The notes under the pieces are model-generated. The model was not told the DNA's origin. It saw only the letters and a program-made list of their open reading frames with translations, and searched no databases. This document shows positions 17,408 through 29,028 of a stretch of 64,000 nucleotides of DNA, piece by piece. Origin of the DNA: Acidimicrobiia bacterium (GTDB lineage Bacteria; Actinomycetota; Acidimicrobiia; Spongiisociales; ZC4RG35); NCBI GenBank assembly GCA_040510135.1, contig JBEVJN010000050.1, positions 33,461 to 97,460 on the forward strand, in the 5' to 3' direction. Position numbers and translations under genes: made by a program. Position 1 is the stretch's first letter. Every line of letters begins with the position of its first letter.

Positions 17408-17785
17408 TCAGTCTTCGAGGACGGAGAGGACGTTCCCAGCGGGGTCGCGGAACCAGGCGATCGGCGGGCCGAAATCGTCACGCACGATTCCCTTCTCATC
17501 CTGATTCATGCCTTCGTATCGCACCGTTTCGATCCCACGCCCGGCCAGGTCCTCCACGGCCCGATCGATGTCCTCGACCGGGAAGTTGAGGATCGTGAAT
17601 GTCGCCGGGCTGTGATCGGGCTTCGGGTAGATCATGATGTTTCCACCGTCCCGGATGTGGAGGCCGAGCATCCCGTGTTCCTCGGTGACGTTCAGGCCCA
17701 ATGCGCCTTCATAGAACTGGCGGGCCCTTTCGATGTCGTCGACCGAGAAGCCGCTGAAGGCCTTCGTCTTTTCGAACACAGCCAC
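17408..17785 (-). CDS. VOC family (glyoxalase/bleomycin-resistance fold) protein
   Basis: 125 aa with paired beta-alpha-beta-beta-beta pattern (FSVDDIERARQFYEGALGL, FRDPAGNVLSV). Confidence 0.8.
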   Translation of the reverse strand: MAVFEKTKAFSGFSVDDIERARQFYEGALGLNVTEEHGMLGLHIRDGGNIMIYPKPDHSPATFTILNFPVEDIDRAVEDLAGRGIETVRYEGMNQDEKGIVRDDFGPPIAWFRDPAGNVLSVLED

Positions 17786-17839
17786 CTCCTGTGGTCCGGA
17801 TGAGATGAGTTTCCCCGTCGCCGGGAGTCTCTAATCGCG

Positions 17840-18124
17840 TTGGATGGAGAAATCGAACCCGGTCGGCCTGCCCTGATCTGTGACGTCGGCGGGGTCAGCT
17901 CGCCCGATCTGGCCACAATCGAGGCCCTGTGCCGTTTTCGACTCGCAATCGCCGACCGGGGATATGCGGTCCGGCTGCGCGATGCCTCACCGGGCCTGCG
18001 CGAACTGCTCGGTCTATGCGGTCTCGACGCGGCCCTACCCCTCGTAGACGAGGGGCAATCCGAACAACGGGAACAAGCGGTCGGTGTCGAGAAAGAAGTT
18101 GAGCCCGGAGATCCGACCATATGA
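17840..18124 (+). CDS. Short STAS-domain protein; last 30 codons are antisense to the sigma gene
   Basis: TTG start. STAS-like core ALICDVGGVSSPDLATIEALCRFRLAIADRGYAVRLRDASPGLRELLGLCGL. The ORF runs 90 nt into the convergent gene. Confidence 0.55.
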   Translation: MDGEIEPGRPALICDVGGVSSPDLATIEALCRFRLAIADRGYAVRLRDASPGLRELLGLCGLDAALPLVDEGQSEQREQAVGVEKEVEPGDPTI

Positions 18125-19030
18125 GATCTCCAGGACCTGGAGCGACCAGGGCACGTATCCGCCGTCAGGGCCGGGCTTGTACTGGCCGAATGCAGGCAGT
18201 CCGTTGGCCGGCTCCGTGGGCACGACGACCGACCCCCGGCAACCGATGCCTGTGCCCAGGAACCAACCCCGGATGGCGACATGACCACGCAGCCAGAGGT
18301 CATACGGCGGCATCGACTGCACCACGTCGTCGTGAAGGAGGGCGACCAGAGAGTCGAGGTCGTATCTCTCGAAGGCGTCGACATAACGGCTGAGCAGGGC
18401 CTTCTGCTCATCGTCGAGGGGCCGGAAGGCATCTGATTCGGTCGGCTCGAGCTCGGCGAGCGTCGCCCTCGCCCGCTGTAGTGCGCTGTTGACAGAGGCG
18501 ACCGTGGTCTCCAATAGCTCGGCGACCTCGTCGGCCTTCCAGCGAAGGACCTCACGCAAGATCAAGACTGCCCGCTGTCGCGCCGGAAGATGCTGGAGGG
18601 CGGTGATGAAGGCGAGCCGCACGGACTCCTTCGCGATCGCTATCTCCGCTGGATCGGTGCTCGGGCCGAGGATGACGCTGTCGGGAACCGGCTCGATCCA
18701 GGTGACCTCCGGCAGGGGAGCGGGAAGGATGGTGTCGGCACTGGAGGCAGGCCCGAGGTCCATTGGGCGAGCCCGGCGTTCCCGGCCTTCGAGCATGTCG
18801 AGGCAGACATTGGTGGTGATGCGGTAGAGCCAGGTCCTCAAGGACGAGCGACCCTCGAATCGGTCGCTGGCCCTCCAAGCCCTGATCAAGCTCTCTTGGA
18901 CTGCATCCTCGGCCTCGAACGATGAGCCCAGCATCCGGTAGGCGTAGCCAGTGAGCTCGCGCCGATATTGGTCCAGATCCTCGTGCGAGGGCGTGTCGCT
19001 TCTGGTTTCGGTGGCCGTCGATTCGCTCAT
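18035..19030 (-). CDS. ECF-type sigma factor with a C-terminal NTF2/SnoaL-like domain (SigG/SigJ-like)
   Basis: Region 2 (AEDAVQESLIRAWRA, WLYRITTNVCLDML), region 4 (RAVLILREVLRWKADEVAELLETTVASVNSALQRAR), then a ~130-aa SnoaL-like tail ending FGLPLVYEG. Confidence 0.9.
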   Translation of the reverse strand: MSESTATETRSDTPSHEDLDQYRRELTGYAYRMLGSSFEAEDAVQESLIRAWRASDRFEGRSSLRTWLYRITTNVCLDMLEGRERRARPMDLGPASSADTILPAPLPEVTWIEPVPDSVILGPSTDPAEIAIAKESVRLAFITALQHLPARQRAVLILREVLRWKADEVAELLETTVASVNSALQRARATLAELEPTESDAFRPLDDEQKALLSRYVDAFERYDLDSLVALLHDDVVQSMPPYDLWLRGHVAIRGWFLGTGIGCRGSVVVPTEPANGLPAFGQYKPGPDGGYVPWSLQVLEISYGRISGLNFFLDTDRLFPLFGLPLVYEG

Positions 19031-19194
19031 GTGGCCCCCCCAGTATGGGACATCTACATCTCGAGTCGGACAGCGAATACGACCCCTGCCCGATGACCTG
19101 GCATGTCTGCCGATTAATTCTGACCTTGATTGCGGTCTGAATCGATCGGGTAACCCCCGAGCTGTCCACTCTCGCGCAATTGAGAGGAGTAACC

Positions 19195-27056: not shown

Positions 27057-27202
27057 TTAAAGTCGAGAAGGTCCACCCCAACAAAGACCTGGCTTCCAAT
27101 CGTCCTCAGGGCCGATTGGGATTCCTACTCAGGACCGATGAGTTTCGGCGGTGGCGCCGGTCTCATTGTCAGAAGATCTCGAGACAGGAAGAGGAGAAAC
27201 CA

Positions 27203-28216
27203 ATGACCAACATGATCGAGGCATCGGGCCTGGTCAAGCGGTACAAGGAAGTCACCGCGCTGGCCGGCCTCGACCTGGTCGTCCCCGAAGGCGTCGTGCT
27301 CGGCCTTCTCGGGCCGAACGGCGCCGGCAAGACGACCGCAGTGTCGATCCTGTCCACGCTGCTCGAGCCAGATGAAGGTCACGCCATGGTCGCCGGAGCC
27401 GACGTGAGGAAGGACCCGAAGGCAGTCCGCCGACTCATCGGGCTCTCTGGCCAATACGCCGCGGTCGACGAGCACCTGACCGGTTTCGAGAATCTGGACA
27501 TGATCGGCCGTCTCTATCACCTCGGAAGGACTCAGTCCCGCGAGCGCTCCCGGGAACTGCTCGACATATTCGACCTCACCGAGGCCGGCGACCGGCCGGT
27601 GAAGACCTATTCGGGTGGTATGCGCCGCCGTCTCGACCTGGCAGGCGCGTTGGTCGCCAAGCCACCGGTGCTGTTCCTCGACGAGCCGTCGTCGGGTCTC
27701 GACCCGAGGAGTCGGGTGGACCTGTGGGACACGATCCGGGACCTGGTCAAGGAGGGGGCGACCCTGCTTCTGACCACCCAGTACCTGGAAGAGGCCGACC
27801 AACTCGCCGATGACATCGTGGTCATCGATCACGGGCGTGAGATCGCCCATGGCACTGCTGATGAGCTCAAGACCCAAGTCGGTGGCGAGCGGATCGAGGT
27901 CACGGTGGCTGATCTGGACCACGTGACGCCGGCTCAGGAAGTCCTGGCGTCGTTTGCGGTGGGTGAGATCCGGATCGATCATCACAGTCGAGGGTTGACC
28001 GCCCCGATAGCCGGAGGGGCGCCGGTCCTCACTCAGGCGCTCCGCGAGCTCGATGCGCGCGGGATCGTGGTTCAGGACGTGGGTCTGCGCCGCCCGACCC
28101 TCGACGACGTGTTCCTGACCTTGACCGGTCACGTCGCCGAGGAAGAGGTCGAGTCGAACGGCGGCAGATCGAAGAAGAAGCCCAAGGAAGAAGAGCTGGA
28201 GGAGGTCAGCCGATGA
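27203..28216 (+). CDS. ABC transporter ATP-binding protein (DrrA-like, ABC-2 type)
   Basis: GAGGAGAAAC RBS before ATG 27203. Walker A GPNGAGKTT, signature YSGGMRRRLDLA and Walker B LFLDEPSSGLD, with a Lys/Glu-rich tail. Confidence 0.93.
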   Translation: MTNMIEASGLVKRYKEVTALAGLDLVVPEGVVLGLLGPNGAGKTTAVSILSTLLEPDEGHAMVAGADVRKDPKAVRRLIGLSGQYAAVDEHLTGFENLDMIGRLYHLGRTQSRERSRELLDIFDLTEAGDRPVKTYSGGMRRRLDLAGALVAKPPVLFLDEPSSGLDPRSRVDLWDTIRDLVKEGATLLLTTQYLEEADQLADDIVVIDHGREIAHGTADELKTQVGGERIEVTVADLDHVTPAQEVLASFAVGEIRIDHHSRGLTAPIAGGAPVLTQALRELDARGIVVQDVGLRRPTLDDVFLTLTGHVAEEEVESNGGRSKKKPKEEELEEVSR

Positions 28217-29028
28217 GCCAGCTAATGACCGCACTTGGCGACGGCGCCGTCGTCGCCAAGCGAAATGTGATCAAGATCAAGCGGGTCCCAGAGATCCTGG
28301 TCTTCGTCCTGCTCTCACCGATCATGTTCGTGCTGTTGTTCGCCTTCGTGTTCGGTGGTGCCATCGACGTGGCCACCGGAGCGCCGCCCGAGGTCTATCG
28401 CGAGTTCCTGATTGCGGGCATCCTGGCCCAAACCGTGATATTCGGGGCGACGTTCACCGGAGCCGGGCTGGCAGACGACATGCAGAAGGGCATCATCGAC
28501 CGGTTCCGGTCGCTCCCGATGGCGAGATCAGCGGTCCTCGTCGGCCGGACATCGAGCGACGTCGTCTACAACGCCATCTCGGTCGCGATCATGGCTCTCA
28601 CCGGCCTCCTGGTCGGGTGGGCGATCCGGACGTCGTTCCTCGAGGCGGCGTTGGGGTTCGCGCTCCTACTCTTGTTCGCATATGCCTTCTCCTGGGTGAT
28701 GGCGTATGTGGGGCTGCTGGTGCCGAGCGTAGAGGTGATCAACAACGCCTCGTTCATGGTGATCTTCCCGATCACCTTCGTGTCGAACGCCTTCGTCCCA
28801 CTCGAGACTCTGCCTCCAGCTCTGCAGACCTTCGCCGAATGGAACCCGGTGTCGTCACTGACTCAGGCGGTGCGTGAGCTGTTCGGCAACATCCCGCCCG
28901 GGGCTCCCGAGCCCACGGCTTGGTCACTGCAGAATCCCGTTATCTACACCTTGATCTGGGTCGTGATCATCATGGTCATCTTCGTCCCGCTCTCGATCAG
29001 GCAGTACAAGCGAGCCGCCCGCCGCTGA
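28213..29028 (+). CDS. ABC-2 type transporter permease (DrrB-like)
   Basis: ATGA overlap with the ATPase. Six hydrophobic spans, about 270 aa, typical ABC-2 membrane component. Confidence 0.9.
   Translation: MSQLMTALGDGAVVAKRNVIKIKRVPEILVFVLLSPIMFVLLFAFVFGGAIDVATGAPPEVYREFLIAGILAQTVIFGATFTGAGLADDMQKGIIDRFRSLPMARSAVLVGRTSSDVVYNAISVAIMALTGLLVGWAIRTSFLEAALGFALLLLFAYAFSWVMAYVGLLVPSVEVINNASFMVIFPITFVSNAFVPLETLPPALQTFAEWNPVSSLTQAVRELFGNIPPGAPEPTAWSLQNPVIYTLIWVVIIMVIFVPLSIRQYKRAARR

What the first reader, a model, noticed from the sequence alone, without database searches (positions are those of the whole stretch)
17840..19030. 90-nt, codon-for-codon antisense overlap between a short STAS gene and the 3' end of a SnoaL-tailed ECF sigma gene
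Seen: the STAS-like ORF (TTG 17840 to TGA 18124) and the convergent sigma gene (19030 to 18035) share positions 18035-18124.

The two frames are exact codon complements. The sigma strand reads ...SYGRISGLNFFLDTDRLFPLFGLPLVYEG*. The other strand reads ...PLVDEGQSEQREQAVGVEKEVEPGDPTI*.

The sigma tail is the end of its NTF2/SnoaL-like domain, so it is under protein-level constraint. The STAS frame stays open only because those sigma codons avoid TCA/TTA/CTA, and it stops at the complement of a TCA Ser codon.

From memory (unverified), short actinobacterial STAS proteins often end in a similar acidic GQ.EQRE..GVEE..PGD tail. A conserved overlap with a sigma gene would explain that.

Inference: STAS proteins are partner-switching components, and SnoaL-tailed ECF sigmas lack a classical anti-sigma. 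The pair may therefore be functionally linked. Convergent overlap also implies mutual transcriptional interference or antisense RNA.
Basis: partly seen in the sequence, partly recalled or inferred. Interest (0 to 1): 0.6.

Follow-up and report, generated by a model that had tools for sequence, protein, structure and literature searches.

The report
STAS gene overlapping its own sigma
A small regulator-like gene lies tail-to-tail with a stress sigma-factor gene, carries that sigma factor's own promoter and shares its last 90 bases with it on the opposite strand; this layout recurs across Actinobacteria and suggests an undescribed feedback partner for a sigma family whose control is unknown.

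Summary
ORF 17840-18124 (+) and the sigma gene 19030-18035 (-) share 90 nt in exact codon-complement register.

- **Sigma gene:** a full-length ECF56/SigG-type factor with a SnoaL-like tail.
- **Plus-strand ORF:** a real, conserved STAS_2-family gene under purifying selection (pN/pS 0.34). In this clade it lacks the N-terminal third of the domain.
- **Promoter (new):** the published ECF56/SigG target promoter (GATGAGTT-N15-GTCTCTA, 17804-17833) sits 6 nt upstream of the TTG start. A match with at most one mismatch is present in 41 of 44 related loci.
- **Conservation:** 38 of 44 loci keep the convergent overlap, 28 of them at exactly 90 nt, from Acidimicrobiia to Streptomyces.
- **Acidic tail:** it mirrors the sigma C-terminus (FFLDT..LFPLFGLP). 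Nocardia sigma genes without a STAS gene encode the same motif in antisense. The tail is predicted disordered.
- **Controls:** low synonymous divergence in the overlap belongs to the sigma gene itself. The only STAS-specific signal is the stop codon. Sigma Ser303 is TCA in 37 of 37 read-through loci checked and never in the 9 others.

Best reading: a sigma-driven feedback module acting through STAS protein, antisense transcription, or both. It is not classical partner switching, because the phospho-serine is absent. No strand-specific RNA or protein data exist.

The parts
17804..17833 (+). ECF56/SigG-type target promoter: -35 GATGAGTT (17804-17811), 15-nt spacer, -10 GTCTCTA (17827-17833). It points at the STAS gene. 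The expected transcript start is about 17836-17840, so the mRNA is leaderless or nearly so.
   Evidence: Exact match to CGATGAGTT-N14-GGTC and to CGATGA-N18-GTCNNTA. The window holds 2 hits against 0.09 expected. An exact or one-mismatch match lies in the same position and orientation in 41 of 44 related loci. Promoter activity was not measured here.
17840..18124 (+). Short STAS_2-family gene (94 aa, TTG start). Residues 10-66 form the C-terminal two thirds of a STAS fold. Residues 66-94 form an acidic, disordered tail.
   Evidence: Pfam STAS_2 27.3 bits; full-length relatives score 35-46 bits. 36 close homologues were found. TTG is conserved in 16 of 16 loci. pN/pS is 0.34 and changes by codon position are 35/22/80 in the non-overlapped part. 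AF2 pLDDT exceeds 90 for residues 10-70 and is about 50 for the tail. All top Foldseek PDB hits are STAS domains.
18035..18124 (.). 90-nt codon-for-codon sense/antisense overlap: STAS codons 66-94 plus stop against the sigma stop plus codons 331-303.
   Evidence: 38 of 44 loci overlap by at least 68 nt, 28 of them by exactly 90 nt. Substitutions by STAS codon position are 27/4/13, so the sigma frame dominates.
18122..18124 (.). STAS stop codon TGA, the complement of sigma Ser303 TCA. It is the one site whose conservation depends on the STAS frame.
   Evidence: TCA in 31 of 31 read-through loci and in 6 of 6 further diverse loci. The 9 loci where STAS stops earlier, is absent or lies on the same strand have TCG, GAC, GAG, ACC, GAA or AAG instead. 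It is the only invariant third-position A among 63 conserved four-fold sites. Losing it would add 104 codons.
18035..19030 (-). ECF56/SigG-type ECF sigma factor gene (331 aa): sigma-2 at 18776-18973, sigma-4 at 18458-18616, SnoaL/NTF2-like C-terminal domain at about 18038-18406, MPPY motif at residues 240-243.
   Evidence: NF006089 437.8 bits against a cutoff of 240; TIGR02960 418.1 against 264.75. locates MPPY at residue 240. The S. coelicolor orthologue is SCO4895, because a published cloning primer matches L041.
19051..19072 (-). Conserved stretch upstream of the sigma gene, TGTCCGAC-N8-TAGATG, resembling the RecA_NDp (PafBC-dependent, DNA-damage) promoter type. No ECF56 motif lies here, so the sigma gene is probably not autoregulated.
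   Evidence: Alignment of sigma upstream regions. Nocardia loci have TTGTCGGTG-N8-CACAGT. M. tuberculosis sigG is driven by RecA_NDp and is not autoregulated. The consensus tTGTCRgtg-N8-TAnnnT is quoted from memory. The match here is partial and activity was not tested.
17408..17785 (-). Divergent glyoxalase/VOC-family gene. Its start lies 18 nt from the -35 element. This family is typical of ECF56 regulons, but no ECF56 motif lies on its own strand.
   Evidence: Pfam Glyoxalase, E 6e-10. Motif search at up to one mismatch. Regulon content.

Best explanation
The window holds a conserved two-gene module of Actinomycetota. One gene is an ECF56/SigG-type sigma factor with a SnoaL-like C-terminal domain. 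It is probably expressed from a DNA-damage-type promoter and not from its own target promoter. The other is a small STAS_2-family gene placed tail-to-tail with it.

The STAS gene is transcribed from the sigma factor's own cognate promoter, as a leaderless or near-leaderless mRNA. Its reading frame runs 90 nt into the sigma gene on the opposite strand. It ends at a TGA that is kept in place by a Ser TCA codon in the sigma gene.

The 29-residue acidic tail is a by-product of overprinting. Its sequence is dictated by the sigma's conserved C-terminal FFLDT..LFPLFGLP strands, and it is disordered. It is translated, because its end point is under selection.

The wiring makes a feedback loop. Active sigma produces (a) STAS protein, which I infer acts back on the sigma factor as a non-phosphorylatable binding partner. 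It also produces (b) RNA polymerase traffic and RNA antisense to the 3' end of the sigma gene.

Shown: the anatomy, the conservation, the promoter motif, purifying selection on the STAS core, and selection on the stop codon. Inferred: promoter activity in this organism, translation from TTG, a STAS-sigma interaction, and the sign of the feedback. I favour negative feedback, by analogy with anti-sigma genes that are expressed from their sigma's own promoter.
For: **Anatomy:**

**Sigma identity:**

**Promoter:**
- Exact match to the experimentally derived ECF56/SigG motif at 17804-17833 (2 hits against 0.09 expected).
- An exact or one-mismatch match in the same place and orientation in 41 of 44 loci, including Streptomyces and distant Acidimicrobiia.
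- A start codon (ATG, GTG or TTG) lies 6-11 nt after the GTC in many lineages. Others have an SD-containing leader.

**A real gene:**
- 36 close homologues and 1264 Streptomyces homologues annotated as 'STAS domain-containing protein'.
- 2292 clusters at 50% identity with E <= 1e-10.
- pN/pS 0.34 with third-position-dominated change.
- Conserved TTG, confident partial STAS fold, and full-length relatives that pass the Pfam threshold.

**Linkage to the sigma gene:**
- The sigma gene is convergent in 41 of 43 informative loci. This excludes L020, whose STAS match is probably false.
- In L017 the same promoter drives STAS and sigma as an operon, where only a protein-level link is possible.

**Stop codon:**

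**Tail as a mirror image:** Nocardia sigma genes without STAS encode AEQREQ.VGVEEEVEPGD in antisense. Change by codon position is 27/4/13.

**Experimental hints:**
- In S. venezuelae the sigma's neighbour SVEN_4561 ('hypothetical protein') rises with b=3.70 and q=4e-36. This happens when a truncated sigma lacking codons 237-323 is overexpressed.
- Unstranded RNA contigs from pure Streptomyces cultures bridge the STAS and sigma genes.

**Terminator:** none found between the STAS stop and the far end of the sigma gene.
Against: - There are no strand-specific RNA, TSS, Ribo-seq or proteomic data for this organism. Metatranscriptome contigs gave one 152-nt fragment on the STAS core and nothing on the overlap.
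- In this clade the STAS lacks beta1-beta2-alpha1 and scores below the Pfam gathering threshold.
- It starts with TTG and has no SD. Its GC3 is atypical: 0.66 against about 0.80 in neighbouring genes.
- The tail shows no constraint of its own beyond the stop. pN/pS is 0.68.
- The low synonymous rate in the overlap is equally low in sigma genes without any overlap. The invariant GGG at Gly309 is likewise present in all of them.
- Tail-less variants exist (L015, L019, L025). Whole lineages (Nocardia here; M. tuberculosis) have the sigma but no STAS partner. The partner is therefore not essential to ECF56 function.
- In vitro RIViT-seq with full-length SCO4895 did not list the neighbour as a target. 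That experiment found no motif-bearing targets at all, so it carries little weight.
- I could not verify that SVEN_4561 is the STAS orthologue.
- No STAS-sigma binding evidence exists.
Confidence: 0.6

Rival explanations
1. The cis arrangement is the function. The sigma-dependent promoter mainly fires an antisense transcript into the sigma gene, and this lowers sigma expression by polymerase collision or by RNA duplex cleavage (excludon or cutoRNA style). The STAS reading frame, eroded in this clade, is a passenger or a relic.
For: - Convergent, zero-gap or overlapping placement is kept from Acidimicrobiia to Streptomyces.
- No terminator lies after the STAS stop.
- The N-terminus has eroded progressively: full length, then minus one third, then further truncated in L017.
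- The gene has a TTG start, no SD and odd GC3.
- RNA contigs span both genes.
Against: - Purifying selection acts on the STAS amino-acid sequence (pN/pS 0.34).
- The start and stop codons are conserved.
- The fold is predicted with confidence.
- In L017 the STAS sits upstream of the sigma on the same strand, where antisense action is impossible.
- A pure antisense RNA would not need a fixed stop codon.
Confidence: 0.2
2. STAS is simply one more regulon member with a target unrelated to the sigma factor, for example a transporter accessory protein like MlaB or SulP-type STAS, or a partner of some other anti-sigma factor. Its adjacency is historical and the overlap is a tolerated read-through.
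For: - STAS_2 is the MlaB-type family, and JGI names some members 'ABC-type transporter Mla MlaB component'.
- The profile is as close to MlaB as to SpoIIAA.
- The tail sequence is unconstrained.
- Tail-less variants exist.
- Other regulon genes cluster nearby in some loci, for example RibD_C and a hydrolase in L043.
Against: - The immediate neighbour is the sigma gene in 42 of 43 informative loci, while the other flanking genes change completely.
- No transporter is conserved next to it.
- The stop codon is under selection.
Confidence: 0.15
3. The + ORF is not a gene at all, only an open antisense frame of the kind common in GC-rich DNA that gene callers pick up.
For: - Antisense codon-complement frames stay open by default. 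In Nocardia this frame runs 84-416 codons with no STAS gene.
- The Pfam score is below threshold.
- The GC-by-position pattern (0.78/0.52/0.66) looks like that of an antisense frame.
Against: - Two thirds of the ORF lies outside the sigma gene. That part evolves with third-position-dominated change (35/22/80) and pN/pS 0.34.
- The opposite frame there contains stops.
- Full-length relatives pass Pfam and fold as complete STAS domains.
- The promoter, start and stop are all conserved.
Confidence: 0.03

Closest known systems
ECF56 / SigG-type sigma factors and their conserved regulon (M. tuberculosis SigG Rv0182c; S. venezuelae SVEN_4562; S. coelicolor SCO4895)
   Same: - Same sigma family by NCBIfam scores, SnoaL-like extension and MPPY motif.
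- Same target promoter (CGATGAGTT-N14-GGTC, also written CGATGA-N18-GTCNNTA).
- Glyoxalase-type neighbours.
- The sigma gene is apparently driven by a DNA-damage-type promoter and not by itself.
   Different: - None of the searchable papers on this family mentions a STAS partner, an overlapping gene or antisense transcription.
- In M. tuberculosis, sigG is followed by co-transcribed Rv0181c and Rv0180c and has no STAS gene.
- S. tsukubaensis SigG1 has an unrelated anti-sigma factor, RsfG.
STAS-domain anti-sigma-factor antagonists in partner switching (SpoIIAA, RsbV) and the STAS accessory protein MlaB
   Same: - Same fold. Foldseek top hits include SpoIIAA, RsbS, RsbV and MlaB.
- Profile matches: 1e-5 to SpoIIAA, 5e-5 to MlaB, 1e-4 to RsbV.
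- A small single-domain protein encoded beside a sigma gene.
   Different: - The phosphorylatable Ser aligns to Leu.
- No anti-sigma kinase or PP2C phosphatase gene is conserved nearby.
- The window clade lacks beta1-beta2-alpha1.
- It carries a 29-residue acidic disordered tail encoded antisense to the sigma gene.
- Its partner would be an ECF sigma factor, not a group 3 sigma factor held by a kinase.
Convergent overlapping transcription units: excludons (Listeria) and cutoRNAs (convergent untranslated overlapping RNAs, Streptomyces). Both are cited from my own knowledge.
   Same: Tail-to-tail genes whose transcripts must be complementary over their 3' ends, so expression of one can depress the other.
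   Different: - Here the overlap is coding on both strands in exact codon register.
- One partner is the transcription factor that drives the other.
- The arrangement is conserved across a phylum, not confined to one species.
ECF sigma / anti-sigma pairs expressed from the sigma's own promoter (the classical negative feedback design)
   Same: A small regulator-like gene next to the sigma gene and under the sigma's own promoter. In L017 the two form a true operon.
   Different: - The regulator is a STAS domain, not an anti-sigma domain.
- The usual arrangement is convergent, not co-transcribed.
- The sigma gene itself lacks the autoregulatory promoter.

Membership tests
ECF56 / SigG-type ECF sigma factor (TIGR02960, NF006089) | Sigma-70 regions 2 and 4 only (ECF core) | tested here: met
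   Pfam Sigma70_r2 3e-21 and Sigma70_r4_2 9e-15
ECF56 / SigG-type ECF sigma factor (TIGR02960, NF006089) | C-terminal SnoaL/NTF2-like extension | tested here: met
   SnoaL_2 31.8 bits against a threshold of 27 on residues 214-259; the family models cover residues 5-328
ECF56 / SigG-type ECF sigma factor (TIGR02960, NF006089) | Score above the curated family cut-off | tested here: met
   NF006089 437.8 against 240; TIGR02960 418.1 against 264.75
ECF56 / SigG-type ECF sigma factor (TIGR02960, NF006089) | Conserved MPP[FYL] motif after sigma-4 (Thompson et al.) | tested here: met
   MPPY at residues 240-243; motif definition
ECF56 / SigG-type ECF sigma factor (TIGR02960, NF006089) | Cognate promoter CGATGAGTT-N14-GGTC present at target genes | tested here: met
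   Two exact GATGAGTT-N15-GTC sites in the window, at 17804 and 27137, against 0.09 expected. Activity was not measured.
STAS domain (Pfam PF13466 STAS_2) | Score at or above the Pfam gathering threshold | tested here: not met
   The window protein scores 27.3 against 29.2 bits. Full-length relatives at the same locus score 35-46 bits, so it is a truncated member of the family by descent.
STAS domain (Pfam PF13466 STAS_2) | Complete beta1-beta2-alpha1-beta3-alpha2-beta4-alpha3 fold | tested here: not met
   Only profile positions 27-80 of 80 are matched. AF2 gives beta-alpha-beta-alpha for residues 11-59. The relative L013 folds as a complete STAS domain.
Anti-sigma-factor antagonist of a partner-switching module (SpoIIAA/RsbV type) | Phosphorylatable Ser/Thr at the start of helix alpha2 | tested here: not met
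   In the profile alignment to SpoIIAA (1th8_B...FMDSSGLG...), the first Ser after Asp aligns to the family's Leu (window D23-L24). Which Ser is phosphorylated is quoted from memory.
Anti-sigma-factor antagonist of a partner-switching module (SpoIIAA/RsbV type) | Cognate anti-sigma serine kinase (HATPase_c) and/or PP2C phosphatase encoded nearby | tested here: not met
   The genes flanking the pair in the window and in Streptomyces and metagenome loci carry no such Pfam families, and no flanking gene is conserved across these loci.
Excludon / cutoRNA-type convergent antisense regulation | Transcripts of the two genes overlap and affect each other's level | tested here: inconclusive
   No terminator was found, and unstranded RNA contigs bridge the two genes in Streptomyces. 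No strand information or effect on expression is available.

The most novel reading that the evidence does not exclude
The STAS protein is the missing trans-acting regulator of SnoaL-extended ECF56 sigma factors. Its acidic tail is not a passive echo. The tail arose by overprinting on the sigma gene and is the exact antisense peptide of the sigma's last 29 residues. In this reading it docks on that same C-terminal SnoaL segment, or on the DNA-binding surface it guards, and so sets sigma activity. That would make a self-contained switch in which a regulator's effector peptide and its target are encoded by the two strands of the same 90 bp.
Probability: 0.1. Interest if true: 0.9.

Novelty: new variant of a known kind. 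Interest (0 to 1): 0.62.

Why it matters
**An open question becomes testable.** How ECF sigma factors with SnoaL-like extensions (ECF41, ECF56 and relatives) are switched is unresolved. Reviews state that the regulatory role in ECF56 'remains to be elucidated', and the family is treated as a stand-alone one-component system. A partner gene that is phylum-wide, syntenic and sigma-dependent gives a concrete candidate. It can be tested in laboratory Streptomyces strains.

**A clean natural case of overprinting.** Tests on the close homologues, with no-overlap sigma genes as controls, found no tail constraint from the STAS frame beyond its stop codon. A conserved-looking 29-residue motif shared by a family that may run to thousands of annotated proteins therefore carries little information of its own. 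It echoes the gene on the other strand. The one frame-specific constraint, the stop codon, forces a serine codon on the sigma factor.

**A practical warning.** Profiles built from these STAS proteins will hit the antisense strand of ECF56 sigma genes. My own tblastn hits to Nocardia show this. In addition, the ATG start called for the 128-aa form of the Streptomyces protein in L041 lies inside the -35 element.

Tried and rejected
1. **Dual-coding constraint in the overlap.**
   - Sigma synonymous divergence in the last 29 codons is low: 0.284 against a mean of 0.388.
   - Gly309 is invariantly GGG, giving the tail's Pro.
   - Pro is enriched at tail positions -6 and -3 in 127 representatives.
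   - I rejected the first two signals as evidence for the STAS frame, and with Gly309 the Pro at -6. Sigma genes without any overlap show the same low divergence: Nocardia 0.263 against 0.399, and tail-less loci 0.283 against 0.425. They also show the same GGG in 8 of 8.
   - The Pro at -3 (sigma Arg306 as CGG) has no such control and remains ambiguous.
2. **Metatranscriptomes for the window**. Only fragments of relatives were found. One 152-nt contig lies on the STAS core and nothing lies on the overlap. There is no strand information.
3. **RNA runs for Streptomyces**. These are unstranded assembled contigs only. L041 could not be sent to the read tools.
4. **RIViT-seq target list for SCO4895**. 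The neighbour is not listed. The 15 listed targets are weak (about 2-fold), most are annotated only as hypothetical proteins, and at least two also appear on the SigR list. The result is uninformative.
5. **Terminator and structure after the STAS stop.** No terminator-like site lies within the sigma gene. The fold of 18100-18280 is not significant, with z = -1.2. The small hairpin around the stop is not conserved in Streptomyces.
6. **Supplement of Casas-Pastor et al.** on ECF56 genomic context is not held.
I could not count ECF56 paralogues or regulon sites in this genome.
8. **L020.** I rejected its 'STAS' match as a false positive, because it lies inside a 571-aa acyl-CoA-synthetase-like ORF.
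Full report
**Observation**

The two ORFs are exactly as described.
- The + ORF runs 17840..18124: TTG start, 94 aa.
- The - ORF runs 19030..18035: 331 aa.
- They share 18035-18124 (90 nt) with codons in exact complementary register.
- The STAS stop TGA at 18122-18124 is the complement of sigma codon Ser303 (TCA).

The sigma gene is a full-length ECF56/SigG-type factor.
- Pfam finds Sigma70_r2, Sigma70_r4_2 and SnoaL_2.
- NCBIfam NF006089 scores 437.8 bits against a cutoff of 240. TIGR02960 scores 418.1 against 264.75.
- The MPPY motif that Thompson et al. use as the family landmark lies at residues 240-243.

The short ORF scores 27.3 bits on STAS_2, under the gathering score of 29.2. It matches only profile positions 27-80 of 80, so the first third of the domain is missing.

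**Is the short ORF a gene?**

Yes, with good confidence.
- It has 36 close homologues of the same length and with the same end.
- Across 16 loci with an intact 94-codon ORF, the TTG is conserved in all.
- In the 64 codons outside the sigma gene, changes fall 35/22/80 on codon positions 1/2/3 and pN/pS is 0.34. This is the signature of a translated frame under purifying selection.
- AlphaFold2 predicts residues 10-70 with pLDDT above 90 as beta-alpha-beta-alpha.
- All top Foldseek hits in the PDB are STAS domains: BicA, TM1081, SpoIIAA, RsbS, RsbV and MlaB.
- More distant relatives at the same genomic position are full-length. They pass the Pfam threshold at 35-46 bits and fold as complete STAS domains.
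- The family is large. There are 1264 homologues of the Streptomyces member, mostly annotated by NCBI as 'STAS domain-containing protein'. A profile search found 2292 clusters at 50% identity with E <= 1e-10.

Weak points for the window's own clade:
- The N-terminus is truncated.
- The start is TTG with no Shine-Dalgarno sequence.
- GC3 is 0.66 against about 0.80 in neighbouring genes.

**The key new finding: the promoter**

A conserved stretch just upstream of the TTG first showed up as an in-frame 'DEFPRRRES'. It is the published target promoter of this sigma family.
- Thompson et al. derived CGATGAGTT-N14-GGTC from S. venezuelae RNA-seq. They showed that ECF56 factors from three distant actinobacteria drive ECF56-dependent promoters bearing it.
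- Gaudion et al. derived CGATGA-N18-GTCNNTA from the mapped Rv0887c start site in M. tuberculosis.
- The window reads GATGAGTT-TCCCCGTCGCCGGGA-GTCTCTA at 17804-17833 on the + strand, pointing at the STAS ORF.
- The window holds two exact sites where 0.09 are expected.
- An exact or one-mismatch match lies in the same position and orientation in 41 of 44 loci carrying a STAS relative. These include Streptomyces and distant Acidimicrobiia.

In many lineages an ATG, GTG or TTG follows the GTC by only 6-11 nt, which implies a leaderless mRNA. In others a leader of about 25-35 nt with GAAAGGAG-type Shine-Dalgarno sequences intervenes.

The sigma gene itself has no such motif upstream.
- Its conserved upstream region, TGTCCGAC-N8-TAGATG at 19051-19072, resembles the RecA_NDp type that drives M. 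tuberculosis sigG.
- The match is partial and the consensus is quoted from memory.

**Conservation of the pair and of the overlap**

Of 44 STAS-bearing loci (window, genome and metagenome scans, and look-ups of random family representatives), one search gives this tally:

| Arrangement | Loci |
|---|---|
| Sigma convergent, overlap of 68 nt or more | 38 |
| - of which exactly 90 nt | 28 |
| - of which 93-138 nt (longer sigma C-terminus) | 7 |
| - of which about 68 nt (frameshifted nanopore MAGs) | 3 |
| STAS ends 0-18 nt before the sigma stop (L015, L019, L025) | 3 |
| STAS and sigma on the same strand behind the same promoter (L017) | 1 |
| Contig too short to tell (L040) | 1 |
| Probable false match (L020) | 1 |

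- Flanking genes are otherwise unrelated between lineages.
- In Streptomyces the sigma is the SCO4895 orthologue, because a published cloning primer matches L041.
- The five Nocardia loci have the sigma but no STAS gene.

**What the tail is**

The acidic tail is the mirror image of the sigma C-terminus.
- STAS GVEEE reads against sigma FFLDT.
- STAS E-R-E reads against sigma F-P-L/F.
- Nocardia sigma genes, with no STAS ORF upstream, still encode AEQREQ.VGVEEEVEPGD in the antisense frame. That is why tblastn found them.
- Inside the overlap, substitutions follow the sigma frame: 27/4/13 on STAS positions 1/2/3. STAS pN/pS rises to 0.68.
- Radical STAS changes such as R/G and S/P/A/T correspond to synonymous sigma changes.
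- Both structure predictions leave the tail at pLDDT 50-69, which means disordered.

All 149 best representatives match through the tail end of the profile, and all 50 C-termini I inspected carry the motif. In 127 of the 149 the protein ends at the same position.

**Does the STAS frame constrain the overlap?**

I tested this and mostly rejected it.
- Sigma synonymous divergence in the last 29 codons is low: 0.284 against a mean of 0.388.
- Gly309 is always GGG.
- Sigma genes with no overlap show the same low divergence and the same GGG in 8 of 8. Both features therefore belong to the sigma gene.

The one robust signal specific to the STAS frame is the stop codon.
- Ser303 is TCA in 31 of 31 read-through loci and in 6 of 6 further diverse loci.
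- These include 72%-GC Streptomyces, where I expect TCA to be rare (from general knowledge).
- It is the only conserved four-fold site with an invariant A among 63.
- In the 9 loci without read-through, the position is not even serine as a rule: TCG, GAC, GAG, ACC, GAA or AAG.
- Without this stop the frame would run on for 104 more codons.

I conclude that ribosomes do read the tail and that its length is under selection, while its sequence is essentially dictated by the sigma gene.

**Mechanism**

Shown:
- A sigma-family-specific promoter motif faces a conserved, selected STAS gene.
- That gene's transcript and frame must enter the sigma gene.

Inferred: active sigma makes STAS protein and antisense RNA, giving feedback on the sigma.

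I favour a protein-level action, for three reasons.
- Amino-acid selection acts on the core.
- The most conserved segment (PDLATVEAL...LRELL.LCGL, alpha2-beta4-alpha3) is kept even in the shortest variants.
- In L017 the gene precedes the sigma in an operon, where antisense action is impossible.

Antisense or collision effects are a likely second layer.
- No terminator was found.
- Unstranded RNA contigs from pure Streptomyces cultures bridge both genes.

One experimental hint comes from Thompson's supplementary table.
- The sigma's neighbour SVEN_4561 ('hypothetical protein') is induced with b=3.70 and q=4e-36.
- The overexpressed sigma lacks codons 237-323, so the construct itself cannot supply reads over most of a STAS gene.
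- Synteny with L041 suggests SVEN_4561 is the STAS gene, but I could not verify this.

It is not a classical partner-switching antagonist.
- The phosphorylatable serine of SpoIIAA aligns to Leu.
- No kinase or phosphatase gene is conserved nearby.

**Comparison with the literature, and novelty**

None of the searchable papers on ECF56/SigG mentions a STAS partner, an overlapping gene or antisense transcription.
- Papers read.
- Targeted full-text searches.
- The detailed genomic-context supplement of the ECF classification is not held, so prior cataloguing cannot be excluded.
- Another first-stage reader of this scan noted the same arrangement in another genome. That note is unchecked and is not independent evidence.

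I rate this as a new variant of known kinds: ECF feedback modules, STAS regulators and convergent overlapping genes.

**Verdict**

- It is wrong or unproven about partner switching.
- It missed the decisive promoter.

Interest is moderate to high, because the finding gives a testable candidate regulator for a sigma family whose control is unknown.

Noticed in passing
window 27137-27162 (+), genes 27203-28216 and 28213-29028: A second exact ECF56 promoter (GATGAGTTTCGGCGGTGGCGCCGGTC) lies about 40 nt upstream of a DrrA-like ABC ATPase, which is followed by a permease. This is a likely regulon member. It lies inside the 590-bp gap flagged by another first-stage finding (e1-2854983).
   Followed up: partly
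window 19051-19072 (-): The region upstream of the sigma gene is strongly conserved in the clade (GTCCGACTCGAGRTGTAGATGTCCCATACTGGGG). It partly matches the RecA_NDp/PafBC promoter type. The Nocardia orthologues have a good match (TTGTCGGTG-N8-CACAGT).
   Followed up: partly
L041 4000-4036 (S. rubrogriseus), also L014 3850-3886: The annotated ATG start of the 128-aa Streptomyces 'STAS domain-containing protein' lies inside the -35 element (cGATGATTT). A GTG 8 nt after the GTC would give a leaderless protein of 117-118 aa. The annotated start in this locus is therefore probably 10-11 codons too long, and the other 128-aa Streptomyces annotations may share the error.
   Followed up: partly
L017 3988-5246 (Iamiaceae MAG): Here the ECF56 promoter drives a still shorter STAS remnant (86 aa, starting just before PDLATVEAL, with a Pro-rich tail). 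The sigma gene follows on the same strand. This is an autoregulated operon version of the module.
   Followed up: partly
L013 2390-2451: Two ECF56-type promoters lie back to back on opposite strands, 10 nt apart. One faces the STAS gene and the other faces the divergent gene.
   Followed up: no
L020 5307-5791 and L021/L023 5106-5131 (Nocardia): In Nocardia, which lacks the STAS partner, an ECF56 promoter lies divergent from the sigma gene. In L020 it precedes a glyoxalase-like ORF.
   Followed up: no
L043 550-1672: Next to the STAS-sigma pair lie a RibD_C (deaminase-reductase type) gene and an alpha/beta hydrolase gene. These are the same families reported for the ECF56 regulon of S. venezuelae.
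   Followed up: no
sigma codon 309 (window 18104-18106) and equivalents: Gly309 is GGG in all 31 sigma genes compared, with or without the STAS overlap, although GGC dominates at other conserved glycines. The cause is unexplained and the overlap does not account for it.
   Followed up: partly
L007, L008, L018, L002, L005: Frameshifts in the STAS or sigma ORFs occur only in MFD-labelled MAG contigs. These are most likely sequencing indels rather than pseudogenes.
   Followed up: no
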